Source: Thermoproteota archaeon
GTDB taxonomy: Archaea > Asgardarchaeota > Jordiarchaeia > Jordiarchaeales > Freyrarchaeaceae
Length of the DNA stretch: 61,274 nt
NCBI GenBank assembly: GCA_029258835.1
Contig: JAPDJY010000012.1
Location: forward strand, 1-61,274
Direction: 5' to 3'
The first letter of the stretch is position 1, and each line of letters starts with the position of its first letter. Below are positions 13,723 through 52,409 of this stretch, piece by piece. The translations under genes and the position numbers were made by a program. Below the pieces are notes generated by a model. It was not told the origin of the DNA. It searched no databases and saw nothing but the letters and a program-made list of their open reading frames with translations.

Positions 13723-16889
<3,167 letters not shown>

Positions 16890-19079: not shown

Positions 19080-19188
19080 CGTTAAACCTCCCTTGCAACT
19101 CTAAACTTGTTTAGTACTTATTTTTCCGAGCCTAAAAGATAAATAGGCTTAAGTGTCCTAGACTTCCAGTATTTCCAGTATTCTCCCG

Positions 19189-20550
19189 ATGAACCCTTTA
19201 ACCAGGAAGGAATGCATCTCCTCGGTTAAAGACTTCTCAGTGATGATGGTGAATCCCATGAAAATAAGATCTTTTAATCGTCTTGATAAAACGGAACTTC
19301 ATGGAATATTAAGCAGACGGGGAAACAGCCTTAAAAACGTTATGAGAAGGGTGGAAAGAATAGTAGAAGCAGTCCGGGTGCAGGGTGATAAGGCAGTCAT
19401 TCGCTACACGGAAAAATATGATGGGGTAACGCTCTCCCCTTCCACTATAAGAGTTAAAGAGAGAGAGATAATGGAAGCCTACGAGAAAGTTCCAGAAAAA
19501 TTTATAACCGCAATAAGGACAGCAGCTGAGAACATAGAAGCATACCATAAGAGGCAGCTGGCAACTTTTACCTTTAGCCCTGCTCCGGGCATCATTCTAA
19601 AGCAGGTTTTCCGTCCAGTCGAGTGTGCAGGAATATATGTCCCCGGGGGGCGTGCAGCGTACCCTTCAACCGTTTTAATGACCGCTATACCGGCGCGGAT
19701 AGCAGGAGTTAGGAGAATAGTTGCATGCACCCCTCCCAGCAGAAACGGTAGTGTTACACCTGCTATTTTGGTTGCTTGCAAGGAGGCGGGAGTCACCGAC
19801 ATTTTTAGGATAGGCGGCGCCCAAGCAATAGCAGCCATGGCGTACGGAACCGGCACGGTGCCGAAGGTAGACGTTATAGTAGGGCCAGGAAACATTTACG
19901 TTACCGCAGCTAAGCTGCTTGTAAGCTCAGACGTGAAGGTAGACTTGCCTGCAGGGCCAAGCGAGCTCTTAGTTTTGGCTGATAAAAGCTCTAACCCCCT
20001 CTTCGTAGCTGCAGACCTAGTTTCTCAGGCAGAACATGACCCCTCAGCAGCAGTAGTTTTAGTTACCACCTCAAGGAGTTTCGGTGAGAGAGTGGTGAAG
20101 CTGGCTTACAAGCTAGCCAGCAACTTACCAACCAAAGACACCATTGTTAGCGCTCTCAACAACGGATGGGTTATACTGGTGGAAAACTTGGACGAAGCGG
20201 TGAAGTTTATTAATCTATACGCTCCTGAACACCTTGAAATACAAGTGGAGAACGCCGAGTACGTTTTAGAGAAGGTCAGGAACGCCGGCGCTATATTCCT
20301 CGGAAAGTATTCCCCTGTAGCGGTAGGCGACTACGCTGCTGGATCCAATCATGTTCTACCAACCGGAGGATACGCTAAAGCTTACTCTGGGCTTTCGGTA
20401 GATTGCTTCGTTAAAAGAATAAGCGTTGTCAAGTGCACCCTCAGCGGGCTCAAGGAACTCTCTGAAGTCGTATCTACCTTAGCTGAGCTCGAAGGGCTCC
20501 CTGCCCATGCAGAATCCGTCCGGGTGAGACTTAGCAATGAAAAATGTTAG
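19189..20550 (+). CDS. hisD: Histidinol dehydrogenase
   Basis: GIYVPGG, GPGNIYVTAAK, AGPSE, QAEHDP, APEHLE, GDYAAGSNHVLPT; true start may be about 19258. Confidence 0.96.
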   Translation: MNPLTRKECISSVKDFSVMMVNPMKIRSFNRLDKTELHGILSRRGNSLKNVMRRVERIVEAVRVQGDKAVIRYTEKYDGVTLSPSTIRVKEREIMEAYEKVPEKFITAIRTAAENIEAYHKRQLATFTFSPAPGIILKQVFRPVECAGIYVPGGRAAYPSTVLMTAIPARIAGVRRIVACTPPSRNGSVTPAILVACKEAGVTDIFRIGGAQAIAAMAYGTGTVPKVDVIVGPGNIYVTAAKLLVSSDVKVDLPAGPSELLVLADKSSNPLFVAADLVSQAEHDPSAAVVLVTTSRSFGERVVKLAYKLASNLPTKDTIVSALNNGWVILVENLDEAVKFINLYAPEHLEIQVENAEYVLEKVRNAGAIFLGKYSPVAVGDYAAGSNHVLPTGGYAKAYSGLSVDCFVKRISVVKCTLSGLKELSEVVSTLAELEGLPAHAESVRVRLSNEKC

Positions 20551-24784: not shown

Positions 24785-25554
24785 CTGGAGGACGAGTGGT
24801 TAAAGGTATCCGCTTTAAAAACTTGAGGGATGCCGGCGATCCCGCAGAGCTAGCCCGCCTCTACGATGAAGAAGGCGCTGACGAACTGGTGTTCTTAGAC
24901 ATAACCGCTTCAAGCGATCAAAGGCAAATTTTAATAGACGTGGTCGAGCGAACAGCAGATAATGTTTTTATACCGTTCACCGTGGGCGGCGGGATCAGAA
25001 GTATGGAAGACATAAGGCAAGTTCTATGTGCCGGTGCAGATAAGGTTGCGATAAACACCGCAGCAGTTAAGAAACCCCAACTAATAAGGGACGCAGCCAG
25101 AAAATTTGGCAGTCAATGCATCGTCTGCGCCATTGACGCTAAAAGAGTGCTGGCAAGCAAGAAGGACCCTGATAGAATAACAGTGTCGACCCCTGAGGGA
25201 AGATTCTGGTGGGAAGTCTACATATATGGAGGCCGGCAGCCCACAGGGATCGACGCTATAAAGTGGTCCATTACCGTTGAAAGGCTGGGAGCAGGGGAAA
25301 TCCTCTTAACAAGCATGGATTACGATGGAACCAAGAAAGGGTACGACGTATACCTCACAAAGGAGGTCTGTAGAAGGGTGAGGGTGCCTGTTATTGCAAG
25401 TGGAGGCGCAGGGAGCCCCGACCACATATACCAAGCTCTAACGCAAGGAGGGGCTGACGCAGCACTGGCAGCCTCCATATTCCACTATGGAATATACTCG
25501 ATAAGCGAGGTTAAAAAATATTTAGCTAGAAAAGGGGTTCCCGTGAGGCTATAA
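24748..25554 (+). CDS. hisF: IGP synthase cyclase subunit
   Basis: [36 protein letters not shown]. Confidence 0.97.
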
Positions 25555-25556
25555 AC

Positions 25557-26225
25557 ATGAACATCAAGGAAGTTGTTAACAAGCTGGATTTCCAGAAGGG
25601 AGGAGGAATAATACCTGCAATAATTCAAGACGTTAAAACCAAAGAGGTGCTAATGTTAGGATACATGGACAAGGAGGCCCTAGAGAGAACACTCACCACA
25701 GGTTACATGCACTACTACAGTAGGACTAGGAGGCGAATCTGGATGAAAGGTGAGGAATCGAAGCACTATCAGTTGGTCCGTGAAGCATACTGCGACTGCG
25801 ACTACGACGCTCTCCTATTCAAAGTAGAGCAAAAGGAAGCGTGTTGCCACGAAGGATACTACACTTGCTTCCATAACGTGATAAGAGGCAATAAAACGTT
25901 CAGGAGGGTTTTCCAGCCGGAAGTAGTCTACAGCCAGGCGAAGATACTGGACGAAATCTTCAATGTAATAATGGATCGCATGGAAAAACCTAGGAAGGGT
26001 TCCTATGTCTCAAACCTGACCGGGAAAGGTCTAAACGCAGTGCTCCAGAAGGTGGGTGAGGAAGCGGTAGAACTTATAATTGCAGCGAAGGACGGGGGGA
26101 GACGGGAAGTAGTAAGCGAGGCAGCAGACCTGCTATTTCACGTGCTAGTGCTTTTAGCCAAGAAGGGAGTGAAAATAAGCGAAGTTTACGAGGAGCTAAG
26201 AAAAAGGAGGGAGAGCAAAAGCTAG
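25557..26225 (+). CDS. hisIE: Bifunctional PR-AMP cyclohydrolase / PR-ATP pyrophosphatase
   Basis: WMKGEES, DCDYDALL, CHEG..TCF then KVGEEAVE, EAADLLFH. Confidence 0.95.
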   Translation: MNIKEVVNKLDFQKGGGIIPAIIQDVKTKEVLMLGYMDKEALERTLTTGYMHYYSRTRRRIWMKGEESKHYQLVREAYCDCDYDALLFKVEQKEACCHEGYYTCFHNVIRGNKTFRRVFQPEVVYSQAKILDEIFNVIMDRMEKPRKGSYVSNLTGKGLNAVLQKVGEEAVELIIAAKDGGRREVVSEAADLLFHVLVLLAKKGVKISEVYEELRKRRESKS

Positions 26226-27163
26226 TATACGGGAGTAACCCAGTGCTCGTACTTAGGATTTTTGCCAAGCGTAACCTCTGAAAACGCTTTCTGAAGCTTT
26301 CTTGTAATCGGCCCCGGCTTACCATCCCCCACCGGAATGTTATCGATCTCGACAACCGGAGTTATTTCTCCTGCAGTCCCGGTGATGAAGACCTCGTCCA
26401 TATTGTAAAGCTCTGCTCTTGTAATGTCCCTCTCGGTCACGTTCACTCCAAGCTCCTCCCTAGCTAGCGTGATCACCGTATCCCTGGTGATCCCCCTGAG
26501 AATGGAAGCGTATAGTGGAGTGGTGATGAGCTCCTCATCCTTAACAGCAAAGAGGTTTTCCCCTGACCCTTCAGCCACAAAACCCCGATGGTCAAGTAGC
26601 AGTGCCTCGTCAAACCCGCGCTCAGCAGCCTCTAGCTTAGCAAGAATACTATTAATGTACTGGCCACAAGCCTTAACTTCAGGCGGTAACGCTCTGGGAG
26701 AAATTCTCTCCCAAGAAGAAAACATACACCGCACACCCTTCTCAAGAGCTTCAGGGCCCAAGTAACGTCCAAAGGGTACAACGTAGATTGCCGCCTCAAC
26801 AGGGACCTTAAGAGGGTTTAACCCTAAAGGACCATACCCTCGGAAAACAATAGGTCTGATGTATACTGTCTCATGGAGGTTGTTTCGTCTTATAAGCTCA
26901 ATGATAGCGTCACATATCTCCTGTTTACTGTAAGGAACATCCATTTTATACACTTTAGCAGAGTAAAAAAGCCTGTCAATGTGCTCACGCAGCCTAAAAA
27001 TCAGAATATTCCCGTCCTCAGTAGCATACCCTCTTATCCCCTCAAAAACACCGCTACCATAATGTAACGCGTGTGTCTTAATGTGTACAACAGCACGATC
27101 CCACTCGACAAACTTGCCATTCACCCAGCAATAATCAGCCCGCTCCTCTGACATAGACGACAC
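26222..27163 (-). CDS. ilvE: Branched-chain amino acid aminotransferase
   Basis: ALHYGSGVFEGIRGY, EGSGENLF, ILRGITRD, GTAGEITPV. Confidence 0.95.
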   Translation of the reverse strand: MSSMSEERADYCWVNGKFVEWDRAVVHIKTHALHYGSGVFEGIRGYATEDGNILIFRLREHIDRLFYSAKVYKMDVPYSKQEICDAIIELIRRNNLHETVYIRPIVFRGYGPLGLNPLKVPVEAAIYVVPFGRYLGPEALEKGVRCMFSSWERISPRALPPEVKACGQYINSILAKLEAAERGFDEALLLDHRGFVAEGSGENLFAVKDEELITTPLYASILRGITRDTVITLAREELGVNVTERDITRAELYNMDEVFITGTAGEITPVVEIDNIPVGDGKPGPITRKLQKAFSEVTLGKNPKYEHWVTPVY

Positions 27164-27384: not shown

Positions 27385-27515
27385 GCCGGGGTCACCTAGC
27401 CAGCCTCAAGCCTAGAATGGATAAACAGCCAGAATGGGTGCCAGACTCATAATCCCTGCTGTATCGGGGTCGGATGGGATATCTGGTTGCAGGGGTTCGA
27501 ATCCCCTCCCCGGCA
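27385..27515 (+). tRNA. tRNA-Met(CAT), elongator type, with three introns (27402-27417, 27423-27434, 27452-27480)
   Basis: GCCGGGG/CCCCGGC acceptor stem, CCAGA-CTCATA..ATCTGG, GGTTCGAATCC; each insert forms a BHB; upstream GAAAAATTAAATA promoter. Confidence 0.85.
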
Positions 27516-27574: not shown

Positions 27575-27665
27575 TGGAGCCGCCGAGGGGATTTGAACCC
27601 CTGACCTGCGGATTACAATTTCGGTCTGGCGATGTCCGCCGCTCTTCCAGCTGAGCTACGGCGGC
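27575..27665 (-). tRNA. tRNA-Thr(TGT) with 15-nt intron at 32/33 (27619-27633)
   Basis: Canonical cloverleaf after removing ATCGCCAGACCGAAA; relaxed BHB; encoded CCA. Confidence 0.9.
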
Positions 27666-27841
27666 TCCTTAGTTAGACTCTTTCTTCTAAAGGCTTTTTT
27701 AATTTTTTGTGGTCAGCATTTTTAAGGGATGAGGGGAGTTTGCGTTGTTGGATTTGCTTCCTCCTCTCCCAAGGGTTTCTCATGTAGGATTCATTCTTTT
27801 ATAATGTCTCCTTTGTTTCGCCGTTTTCCTTTAAGGCTGGT

Positions 27842-50859: not shown

Positions 50860-51021
50860 TGGTGCGGGGGGTGGGATTTCTGGGCCGAGTGGACGTGAAC
50901 CCACGAACCCTTCCGCATCCTTTCTACGGGACCGGATCTTAAGTCCGGTGTTCTCTTAAACAAGTCCGGCGCCTCTGGTCTGACCCCTTTTCCCTAACTT
51001 GACCAGCTCGGCAACCCCCGC
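50860..51021 (-). tRNA. tRNA-Leu(TAA) with four introns (50975-50998, 50943-50963, 50911-50923, 50880-50896)
   Basis: Removing four BHB-flanked inserts gives canonical GCGGGGGTTGCCGAGCTGGTCAAAGGCGCCGGACTTAAGATCCGGTCCCGTAGGGGTTCGTGGGTTCAAATCCCACCCCCCGCACCA. Confidence 0.88.
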
Positions 51022-51158
51022 ACTCTACACGAAAAATGCATTTAACACAATATAACCTTAACGCAAAGCTATAATCCACGCATCCACCACCTGAAAACAG
51101 CATCTTCCTCAAAAATAAAAAACATTTTATATGCTTTTTTCCCTCTTAAGGGATGGAG

Positions 51159-51262
51159 GCCCCGGTTTAGCGCCCCGGTGCCTGACCGGCGGGAAAGCTT
51201 AGCTTGGTTAGAGCGTCTCACTGGTAATGAGAAGATCCCGGGTTCGAATCCCGGCCGGGGCT
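51159..51262 (+). tRNA. tRNA-Thr(GGT) with intron at 8/9 (5' end 51159 or 51172; intron ends 51195)
   Basis: GCCCCGGT|AGCTTAGCTTGGTTAGAGCGTCTCACTGGTAATGAGAAGATCCCGGGTTCGAATCCCGGCCGGGGCT; BHB central helix CCCG/CGGG. Confidence 0.85.
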
Positions 51263-52128: not shown

Positions 52129-52245
52129 TGGCGGGCCCGCAGGGATTCGAACCCTGGACACCCGGCTTACGCCACCTTACAACTTAACCGACGTTTAGGA
52201 GGCCGGTGCCCTCTCAGGCAGTAATCCTGGCTAGGCCACGGGCCC
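52129..52245 (-). tRNA. tRNA-Arg(CCT) with two introns (11 nt D-loop 52213-52223; 28 nt at 37/38 52168-52195)
   Basis: Mature GGGCCCGTGGCCTAGCCAGGATAGGGCACCGGCCTCCTAAGCCGG...GCCA; BHB helices CAGG/CCTG and CTCC/GGCG. Confidence 0.87.
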
Positions 52246-52306: not shown

Positions 52307-52409
52307 TGGTGCGGGCTCCGGGATATGCTCAGGGAGTCAGCACTCCCTATTGAACCCGGGTCACTGGCGTGGCAGGCCAGTGTCCTAGTCCAGGCTAGAC
52401 TAAGCCCGC
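52307..52409 (-). tRNA. tRNA-Gly(GCC) with 25-nt intron at 58/59 (52325-52349)
   Basis: Strict BHB: GTTC/GAGC central helix, AGGGAGT/ACTCCCT intron helix; encoded CCA. Confidence 0.93.

What the first reader, a model, noticed from the sequence alone, without database searches (positions are those of the whole stretch)
50860..51021. tRNA-Leu(TAA) gene with four introns, one in the variable arm
Seen: four inserts of 24 nt (D-loop), 21 nt (32/33), 13 nt (variable-arm loop) and 17 nt (56/57). Each has a 4-bp central helix (GGTC/GACC, CCGG/CCGG, CCGT/GCGG, GGGT/GCCC) with 3-nt bulges, and removing them gives a canonical tRNA-Leu. The maximum I recall for archaeal tRNAs is three introns (Thermoproteales), and introns in the long variable arm are very rare. 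Standard annotators would likely miss this gene.
Basis: partly seen in the sequence, partly recalled or inferred. Interest (0 to 1): 0.82.

Follow-up and report, generated by a model that had tools for sequence, protein, structure and literature searches.

The report
Four-intron leucine tRNA gene, Asgard archaeon
This is a real leucine tRNA gene of an Asgard archaeon (Jordarchaeales) cut into five pieces by four tiny enzyme-spliced introns, which is typical of a lineage where four-intron tRNA genes were tabulated in 2024, so it is not a record.

Summary
On the minus strand, window 51021..50860 is a 162-nt tRNA-Leu(UAA) gene with encoded CCA. It carries inserts of 24, 21, 13 and 17 nt in the D-loop, at 32/33, in the variable-arm loop and at 56/57.

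- **Splice motif:** each insert has a 4-bp helix flanked by two 3-nt bulges. Cutting after the second bulge base gives an 87-nt canonical tRNA-Leu(UAA).
- **Motif-free support:** sister-genus orthologues lack three of the inserts and read exactly like the predicted spliced sequence, apart from one base. The fourth insert is shared across the order and shows a compensatory change in its helix.
- **Not an artefact:** contigs from four metagenome runs carry the gene unchanged.
- **Needed:** no other Leu(UAA) gene was found, and UUA makes up 15.5% of leucine codons in long ORFs.
- **Machinery:** the genome encodes two EndA paralogues (one keeps the catalytic His, the other lacks it) and RtcB.

The novelty premise fails. 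"At most three introns" was the pre-2024 view. A 2024 supplementary table lists four-intron tRNA genes in Freyarchaeia and Atabeyarchaeia, and a 2026 preprint reports up to five in these families. The scan has also flagged similar genes on other DNA, one in this genome. No RNA data exist, so splicing is inferred.

The parts
50860..51021 (-). Whole tRNA-Leu(UAA) gene, 162 nt, 3' CCA encoded at 50860-50862
   Evidence: in-silico spliced product called tRNA-Leu(taa) by ARAGORN
50999..51021 (-). Exon 1 (23 nt): acceptor 5' strand, D-stem 5' strand, D-loop up to nt 21
50975..50998 (-). Intron 1, 24 nt, D-loop (my numbering 21/22). Central helix GGUC/GACC, bulges AAG and AGA, outer helix 3 bp (hBH type)
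   Evidence: Homologous intron in all 9 orthologues examined, 100% of helix cells paired with one compensatory C-G to U-A change
50964..50974 (-). Exon 2 (11 nt): D-stem 3' strand, nt 26, anticodon stem 5' strand, C32
50943..50963 (-). Intron 2, 21 nt, at 32/33 by the BHB register. An 8-nt repeat CCGGACTT makes nine placements give the same product. Central helix CCGG/CCGG, bulges ACU and ACU, inner helix 5 bp (HBh' type)
   Evidence: Absent from sister-genus orthologues, which read exactly as the spliced sequence
50924..50942 (-). Exon 3 (19 nt): U33, anticodon UAA, anticodon stem 3' strand, variable-arm 5' strand and loop GUAG
50911..50923 (-). Intron 3, 13 nt, in the variable-arm loop (after mature nt 53). 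Central helix CCGU/GCGG, bulges AGA and AAG, outer helix 4 bp (hBH type)
   Evidence: Absent in G001-G004. A similar intron sits at the same site in metagenome locus L154 and in G005, and in the Leu(CAA), Leu(GAG) and Leu(CAG) genes of this genome
50897..50910 (-). Exon 4 (14 nt): variable-arm 3' strand, T-stem 5' strand, T54-C56
50880..50896 (-). Intron 4, 17 nt, T-loop 56/57. Central helix GGGU/GCCC, bulges UCA and AGA, inner helix 2 bp (HBh' type)
   Evidence: Absent in G001-G003
50860..50879 (-). Exon 5 (20 nt): A57-U60, T-stem 3' strand, acceptor 3' strand, A73, CCA
51041..51055 (-). A/T-rich TATA-like elements (TTATATT, TTAAAT) 20-34 nt upstream of the mature 5' end; possible archaeal promoter
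   Evidence: read directly; not tested

Best explanation
This is the functional and, as far as the assembly shows, only tRNA-Leu(UAA) gene of a Jordarchaeales (Asgard) archaeon. It is transcribed as a precursor of about 160 nt with four short protein-spliced introns. At each junction the 5' exon pairs with the last bases of the intron to form a 4-bp helix, and a 3-nt bulge follows each helix strand. This is a relaxed bulge-helix-bulge motif, hBH for introns 1 and 3 and HBh' for introns 2 and 4. The genome's splicing endonuclease looks like an (alpha-beta)2 EndA of the crenarchaeal/Asgard broad-specificity kind. It would cut after the second base of each bulge, and RtcB would join the five exons (23, 11, 19, 14 and 20 nt) into an 87-nt class II tRNA. 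Shown here: the motifs, the exact junctions (by comparison with intron-free relatives), the enzyme genes, and the DNA in independent samples. Inferred: transcription, cleavage, ligation, and any order of removal. The D-loop intron is old, being shared across the order. The other three are absent from the sister genus, through either gain in this lineage or loss in that one.
For: (1) Motif and product: one search shows four in-register helices and bulges, and ARAGORN calls the product Leu(taa). (2) Motif-free junction checks. Orthologues G001-G003 and the Jordarchaeum MAGs have only the D-loop intron and are 82-83/84 identical to the predicted mature sequence across all three other junctions. 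Intron-free Leu(UAA) genes of unrelated archaea read identically from the anticodon arm through the variable arm. The paralogue Leu(CAA) has an uninterrupted D-arm equal to the predicted spliced D-arm except for one base. (4) Covariation for intron 1: 100% of cells paired in 8 distinct sequences, one C-G to U-A double change, and 21-62% paired when the register is slid. (5) Unconstrained folding puts the helices of introns 1, 2 and 4 in the MFE structure. The helix of intron 3 is absent from the MFE but has minimum pair probability 0.78. (6) Need: UUA is 15.5% of Leu codons in 819 long ORFs, and BLAST, an anticodon-arm scan and a search with the compact orthologue found no second Leu(UAA) gene. 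(7) Machinery. There are two EndA paralogues. The 190-aa one is closest to tRNA-splicing endonuclease chains 3p1z_B and 3ajv_B, and at positions I read by eye from its sequence it keeps the Tyr, His and Lys expected of the catalytic triad. The other has Ala where the first has that His. RtcB is present. Kaneta et al. 2018 report (alpha-beta)2 EndA with the L1 loop in Asgard. (8) Contigs from four runs in four studies carry the gene with no difference between 50846 and 51047, while the flanks differ from the window.
Against: There is no RNA evidence of any kind. No RNA run was listed, so neither the spliced product nor circular introns have been seen. None of the four motifs is a strict hBHBh', since each has only one flanking helix of 2 bp or more, so cleavage depends on a broad-specificity enzyme whose activity is untested. 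Introns 2 and 4 occur in this lineage only, so they have no covariation support. The assembly is 94.7% complete, so a second copy in the missing part cannot be excluded. Folding at 37 C predicts that the helix of intron 2 is disfavoured once intron 1 is gone (pair probability 0.01-0.12), because an intron copy of CCGGA can form a mature-looking anticodon stem.
Confidence: 0.87

Rival explanations
1. Only three of the inserts are introns. The 13-nt variable-arm insert would be kept in the mature tRNA as a longer variable arm, since class II arms vary in length.
For: The unspliced arm can fold into a hairpin (CCGU/GCGG stem) on an outer stem. No RNA data show excision.
Against: Sister-genus orthologues and unrelated archaea have the exact 14-nt variable region that excision predicts. 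The insert sits in a precise BHB register with 3-nt bulges. Inserts of different length and sequence (11, 13, 17, 17, 29 and 34 nt) in other Leu genes and relatives occupy the same site. The five I register-checked (11, 13, 17, 17 and 29 nt) keep the same geometry; the 34-nt insert of L154 was located by alignment only. The variable arm is a LeuRS identity element in archaea (established knowledge, not tested here).
Confidence: 0.06
2. The locus is a decaying pseudogene, and the working Leu(UAA) gene lies in the unassembled 5% of the genome.
For: Completeness is 94.7% in 91 contigs. Four relaxed motifs in one precursor is a heavy processing load.
Against: Exons are 83/84 identical to the sister-genus gene and every stem is intact. 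All four splice motifs are intact. The gene including its introns is invariant across strain variants whose flanks differ. Searches found no other copy. Three other Leu genes of the same genome are built the same way.
Confidence: 0.05
3. The inserts are an assembly or chimera artefact.
For: None beyond the gene coming from a metagenome-assembled genome.
Against: Independent contigs from four runs cover the gene. One 13.4-kb contig spans the whole stretch, with no differences inside the gene. An identical copy lies on a 49.6-kb JGI metagenome contig.
Confidence: 0.01

Closest known systems
Four-intron tRNA genes of Freyarchaeia and Atabeyarchaeia (Valentin-Alvarado et al. 2024, Nat Commun, PMC11291895, Supplementary Data 4)
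   Same: Same phylum, and Freyarchaeia is in the same order by the kinship given. Short non-canonical introns, several per gene, D-arm introns missed by tRNAscan-SE. Four introns are listed for Freyarchaeia Arg-TCT, Ile2-CAT and Leu-GAG and for Atabeyarchaeia-2 Trp-CCA.
   Different: A different family and a different gene. Their Leu-TAA genes are listed with 2 (Freyarchaeia) or 3 (Atabeyarchaeia) introns. The 32/33 and 56/57 introns here were not seen in any orthologue I examined.
Census of intervening sequences in Asgard tRNA genes (bioRxiv 10.64898/2026.10.13.758758)
   Same: It names Jordiarchaeaceae as one of three focal families with 2.2 intervening sequences per gene, up to five in one gene. 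It reports BHB enrichment, repeated gains, variable-region insertions, and two EndA paralogues in most genomes.
   Different: Its per-gene tables are not held here, so I could not check whether this gene is listed. [quoted passage not shown]
Multi-intron tRNA genes of Thermoproteales (Sugahara et al. 2008, as cited in PMC4033280 and PMC8450103)
   Same: Relaxed BHB introns at many positions, handled by an (alpha-beta)2 EndA with a specificity loop.
   Different: A different phylum, with a stated maximum of three introns per gene.
Ectopic and multiple introns in nuclear tRNA genes of the red alga Cyanidioschyzon merolae (PMC3728597)
   Same: BHB-type introns in the D-loop, variable arm and T-loop, up to three per gene, with an order of removal linked to motif stability.
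   Different: A eukaryotic nucleus. Some genes there are also permuted. Splicing was shown by RT-PCR there and not here.

Membership tests
Archaeal protein-spliced (BHB) tRNA introns | [quoted passage not shown] | tested here: met
   All four inserts; background frequency of such a helix in register is 2.5%
Archaeal protein-spliced (BHB) tRNA introns | At least one flanking helix (h or h') of 2 bp or more, as in the relaxed hBH / HBh' forms | tested here: met
   Intron 1 h 3 bp, intron 2 h' 5 bp, intron 3 h 4 bp, intron 4 h' 2 bp. None has both, so none is a strict hBHBh'
Archaeal protein-spliced (BHB) tRNA introns | Cutting after the second bulge base restores a canonical tRNA | tested here: met
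   The register agrees with PMC4090602, where the first two anticodon bases lie in the central helix of a 37/38 intron
Archaeal protein-spliced (BHB) tRNA introns | Genome encodes the splicing endonuclease EndA and an RtcB-type ligase | tested here: met
   PF01974 and PF02778 in two paralogues; RtcB at 606.9 bits
Archaeal protein-spliced (BHB) tRNA introns | Spliced RNA, or excised linear or circular introns, observed | not testable with these tools
   No RNA run was listed for this stretch
tRNA-Leu, class II, anticodon UAA | 7-bp acceptor stem, A73, G18G19, U33, anticodon UAA, long variable arm, 7-nt T-loop | tested here: met
   ARAGORN cloverleaf of the spliced product; 73 identical positions against the 85-nt intron-free Leu gene of G034
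Heavily interrupted tRNA genes of Jordiarchaeia / Atabeyarchaeia (Asgard) | Genome belongs to these lineages and most of its tRNA genes are interrupted | tested here: met
   The orthologues most similar in sequence carry the titles Candidatus Jordarchaeum sp. and Jordarchaeales archaeon. Only 12 tRNA matches pass the Rfam cut-off in a 2.7-Mb genome. All six tRNA genes in the window and all four Leu genes are interrupted
Self-splicing group I or group II introns | Ribozyme core of hundreds of nucleotides | tested here: not met
   The inserts are 13-24 nt, and no Rfam intron family matches in the window
Split or permuted tRNA genes | Exons at separate loci or in permuted order | tested here: not met
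   All five exons are colinear within 162 nt

The most novel reading that the evidence does not exclude
The extra introns of this gene may have been copied from the Leu paralogues of the same genome by gene conversion between near-identical exons: variable-arm and perhaps 32/33 introns from Leu(CAA), the 56/57 intron from Leu(CAG). That would be a traceable route of intron spread in Asgard archaea, which the 2026 census could not find. Hints: the variable-arm intron resembles that of the sister genus's Leu(CAA). The T-loop intron resembles that of Leu(CAG) at the same site. The single exon difference from the sister-genus orthologue (G57 to A57) lies in the 3' bulge of the T-loop intron and matches the Leu(CAG) state. 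Against it: a similar variable-arm intron in Leu(UAA) of another lineage (locus L154) fits old inheritance with loss in the sister genus equally well, and the similarities are short and partly forced by the motif.
Probability: 0.2. Interest if true: 0.5.

Novelty: new member of a known kind. Interest (0 to 1): 0.3.

Why it matters
It is a clean, fully worked example of how far tRNA gene fragmentation goes in Jordarchaeales. 46% of the gene is intron, exons are as short as 11 nt, and all four splice motifs are of the relaxed kind. The gene is apparently indispensable, because it is the only reader of UUA found.

The sister genus carries the same gene, one base different in its exons, without three of the introns. 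That gives a natural with/without pair for testing how such introns arise or are lost, and a ready substrate set for measuring the range of an Asgard EndA. It does not change what is known: four or more introns per tRNA gene are already on record for this group.

Tried and rejected
- **RNA evidence:** no RNA holder was listed for the 601-nt or the 201-nt query, so expression and splicing could not be examined.
- **Whole-genome tRNA census:** a library of 91 compact tRNAs from three other Asgard genomes seeded only 17 loci by BLAST. The sister genome G001 is as disrupted as this one. I therefore gave up the census and parsed only the window's tRNA genes and the Leu family.
- **Strict-helix solver:** my excision solver gave wrong or tied answers for Met/Ile2, Ala, Arg and Leu(CAG) because the references were poor. 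Those parses are not used as evidence.
- **ARAGORN as a uniqueness test:** it is too permissive, calling 206 of 26,194 alternative excision products a tRNA. I replaced it with similarity to intron-free relatives.
- **ARAGORN canonical introns as a register control:** this was noisy. My count gives 11 of 21 canonical-position calls with 3 or more helix pairs in register, against about 15% expected. It is supportive only.
- **Overall folding energy:** the precursor's energy is not unusual (z = -0.67).
- **Preprint tables:** the per-gene tables of the 2026 preprint are not held.
- **Same-genome tRNA-Phe note:** I tried to locate the four-intron tRNA-Phe noted earlier in this genome, but the library sequence was unsuitable.
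- **Rejected readings:** group I/II introns (inserts too short) and split or permuted genes (exons colinear).

Full report
**What is there**

Read on the minus strand, window 51021 to 50860 is 162 nt. It starts with a 7-nt acceptor strand and ends with its complement, then A73 and CCA. ARAGORN and the Rfam tRNA model at gathering score do not report it. A whole-genome Infernal search sees only a 17.4-bit partial match at E = 0.98.

| Intron | Precursor | Window | Length |
|---|---|---|---|
| 1 | 24-47 | 50975-50998 | 24 nt |
| 2 | 59-79 | 50943-50963 | 21 nt |
| 3 | 99-111 | 50911-50923 | 13 nt |
| 4 | 126-142 | 50880-50896 | 17 nt |

For each insert, the four exon bases that end two bases before the 5' cut pair with the four intron bases that end two bases before the 3' cut. 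The helices are GGTC/GACC, CCGG/CCGG, CCGT/GCGG and GGGT/GCCC. A 3-nt bulge follows each helix strand.

This is the archaeal bulge-helix-bulge geometry with the cut after the second bulge base. The register agrees with the description of canonical introns in PMC4090602, where the first two anticodon bases lie in the central helix. Removing the four inserts leaves 87 nt, which ARAGORN folds as a normal class II tRNA-Leu(UAA).

**Is it more than chance?**

- Only 94 of 3782 possible start/end pairs in this stretch (2.5%) have a 4-bp helix in register.
- I enumerated all 26,194 sets of 2-5 non-overlapping register-compatible excisions that leave 84-90 nt. ARAGORN accepts 206 of them, so it is too lenient as a judge.

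The junctions are also confirmed without using the motif:

- The orthologues in the sister genus (G001-G003, and MAGs titled Candidatus Jordarchaeum sp. and Jordarchaeales archaeon) carry only the D-loop intron. They are 82-83 of 84 identical to the predicted mature sequence, running straight through the junctions of introns 2, 3 and 4.
- Intron-free Leu(UAA) genes from unrelated archaea have the same anticodon arm and variable arm as the predicted product.
- For intron 1, the Leu(CAA) paralogue of this genome has an uninterrupted D-arm that differs from the predicted spliced D-arm by one base.
- With boundaries fixed in this way, and allowing for boundaries that can slide without changing the product, my rough estimate for all four fitting the register by chance is about 1e-5.

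**Comparative picture**

The D-loop intron is present in all nine orthologues I examined from two families of the order. In an alignment of these sequences the proposed outer and central helices are paired in 100% of cells. One pair changes on both sides (C-G to U-A in three sequences) and two pairs change between G-C and G-U. Slid registers pair in 21-62% of cells.

The other three introns vary between lineages:

- The 32/33 and 56/57 introns were seen only in this population among Leu(UAA) genes.
- G004 has a T-loop insert of different sequence.
- G007-G010 have inserts in the anticodon stem and after the T-loop.
- G005 and metagenome locus L154 have variable-arm introns at the same site as here.
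- In this genome Leu(CAA), Leu(GAG) and Leu(CAG) all carry a variable-arm intron at that site (11, 17 and 17 nt), each with its own in-register helix.

So the variable-arm intron is a family trait here and not a rarity.

**Is the DNA real, and is the gene needed?**

Contigs from four runs in four studies cover the gene. One 13.4-kb contig spans the whole stretch laid. These contigs differ from the window at several flank positions but at none between 50846 and 51047. An identical copy lies on a 49.6-kb metagenome contig.

UUA is 15.5% of leucine codons in 819 long ORFs. BLAST with the mature sequence, a scan for UAA anticodon arms and a search with the compact orthologue all found no second Leu(UAA) gene in the 94.7%-complete assembly.

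**Machinery**

The genome has two EndA paralogues, each with both Pfam EndA domains.

- The 190-aa protein is closest to tRNA-splicing endonuclease chains 3p1z_B and 3ajv_B (E about 1e-45). From memory these are the Aeropyrum pernix enzyme. At positions I read by eye from its sequence it keeps the Tyr, His and Lys expected of the catalytic triad. It also has a 9-residue lysine-rich insertion near the N-terminus that the other paralogue lacks.
- The second paralogue has Ala where the first has that His, as expected for a structural subunit.

This fits the (alpha-beta)2 EndA with the L1 loop that Kaneta et al. 2018 describe for TACK and Asgard archaea and link to broad substrate range. Calling the insertion the L1 loop is my inference. 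RtcB is present.

All four motifs here are relaxed. Introns 1 and 3 have an outer helix only, and introns 2 and 4 an inner helix only. A broad-range enzyme is therefore what the gene needs.

**Folding**

The unconstrained minimum-energy fold of the precursor contains the central helices of introns 1, 2 and 4, together with the 5' bulge and inner helix of introns 2 and 4. The helix of intron 3 is absent from that fold but has minimum pair probability 0.78 in the ensemble.

The intron-2 helix competes with a mature-looking anticodon stem formed by an intron copy of CCGGA. Its probability is 0.22 in the full precursor and 0.01-0.12 once intron 1 is removed. After intron 2 is removed the other three helices reach 0.86-0.98. 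This hints that intron 2 goes early. It is a 37 C prediction only and carries little weight.

**Comparison with what is known**

The statement that archaeal tRNA genes hold at most three introns is in PMC8450103 (2021) and PMC4033280 (2014).

Valentin-Alvarado et al. 2024 found that 92-95% of tRNA genes in three complete Atabeyarchaeia and Freyarchaeia genomes have introns. Their Supplementary Data 4 has columns for four introns and lists several four-intron genes.

The October 2026 preprint 10.64898/2026.10.13.758758 names Jordiarchaeaceae as one of three focal families. It reports 2.2 intervening sequences per gene and up to five, D-arm inserts often missed by tRNAscan-SE, variable-region insertions, and two EndA paralogues in most genomes.

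Earlier notes of this scan describe four- and five-intron tRNA genes in other Asgard genomes, and a four-intron tRNA-Phe in this genome. I did not verify those notes.

**Verdict**

The gene is a new example of a known kind and not a record. What remains open is RNA-level proof, and whether the lineage-specific introns were gained (possibly copied from the Leu paralogues) or lost in the sister genus.

Noticed in passing
window 27385-27515(+), 27575-27668(-), 51159-51262(+), 52129-52245(-), 52307-52409(-): The other five tRNA genes in the window are all interrupted too. Met/Ile2(CAT) is 131 nt with about 56 nt of inserts, which I could not solve. Ala(CGC) has one insert near the anticodon loop. 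Thr(GGT) has a 29-nt intron at 8/9 (51167-51195). Arg(CCT) has about two inserts. Gly(GCC) has a 25-nt T-loop intron (52325-52349) with a 7-bp inner helix.
   Followed up: partly
own genome contig 1, 107778-107924 (-), tRNA-Leu(CAA): The 18-nt insert at 31/32-32/33 of this Leu(CAA) gene has no 4-bp helix in the register that would restore a 7-nt anticodon loop. The sister genus's Leu(CAA) has a clean CCGG/CCGG motif at that site. This could be a very relaxed motif or a damaged gene.
   Followed up: partly
L154 (metagenome contig Ga0207433_10011435), around 1700-1900: A Leu(UAA) gene of another lineage has a 34-nt variable-arm insert. It reads like the 13-nt intron of this gene followed by a second 21-nt unit that also ends in GCGGAA. 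This may be a tandem or nested pair of introns.
   Followed up: no
window 50879 (A57 of the tRNA): The only exon difference from the G001 orthologue is G57 to A57. This base is the third base of the 3' bulge of the T-loop intron. The two Leu(CAG) genes I looked at that carry an intron at that site (this genome and G003) also have A57.
   Followed up: partly
own genome, other contigs (earlier scan notes): Earlier first-reader notes report BHB-type introns inside many protein-coding genes and RNase P RNA of this same genome. I did not test them. If true, the EndA system here works far beyond tRNA.
   Followed up: no
G037 contig 54, about 19100-20390 (-) and 25170-26270 (+): Another Asgard genome has two dense arrays of about 25 compact, mostly intron-free tRNA genes within 7 kb, unlike the dispersed, interrupted genes elsewhere. 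This may be a mobile element or foreign DNA.
   Followed up: no
window 13767-16845 (+): A full-length archaeal 23S rRNA gene (2922.9 bits) with no Rfam SSU rRNA match anywhere in the 61-kb window.
   Followed up: no
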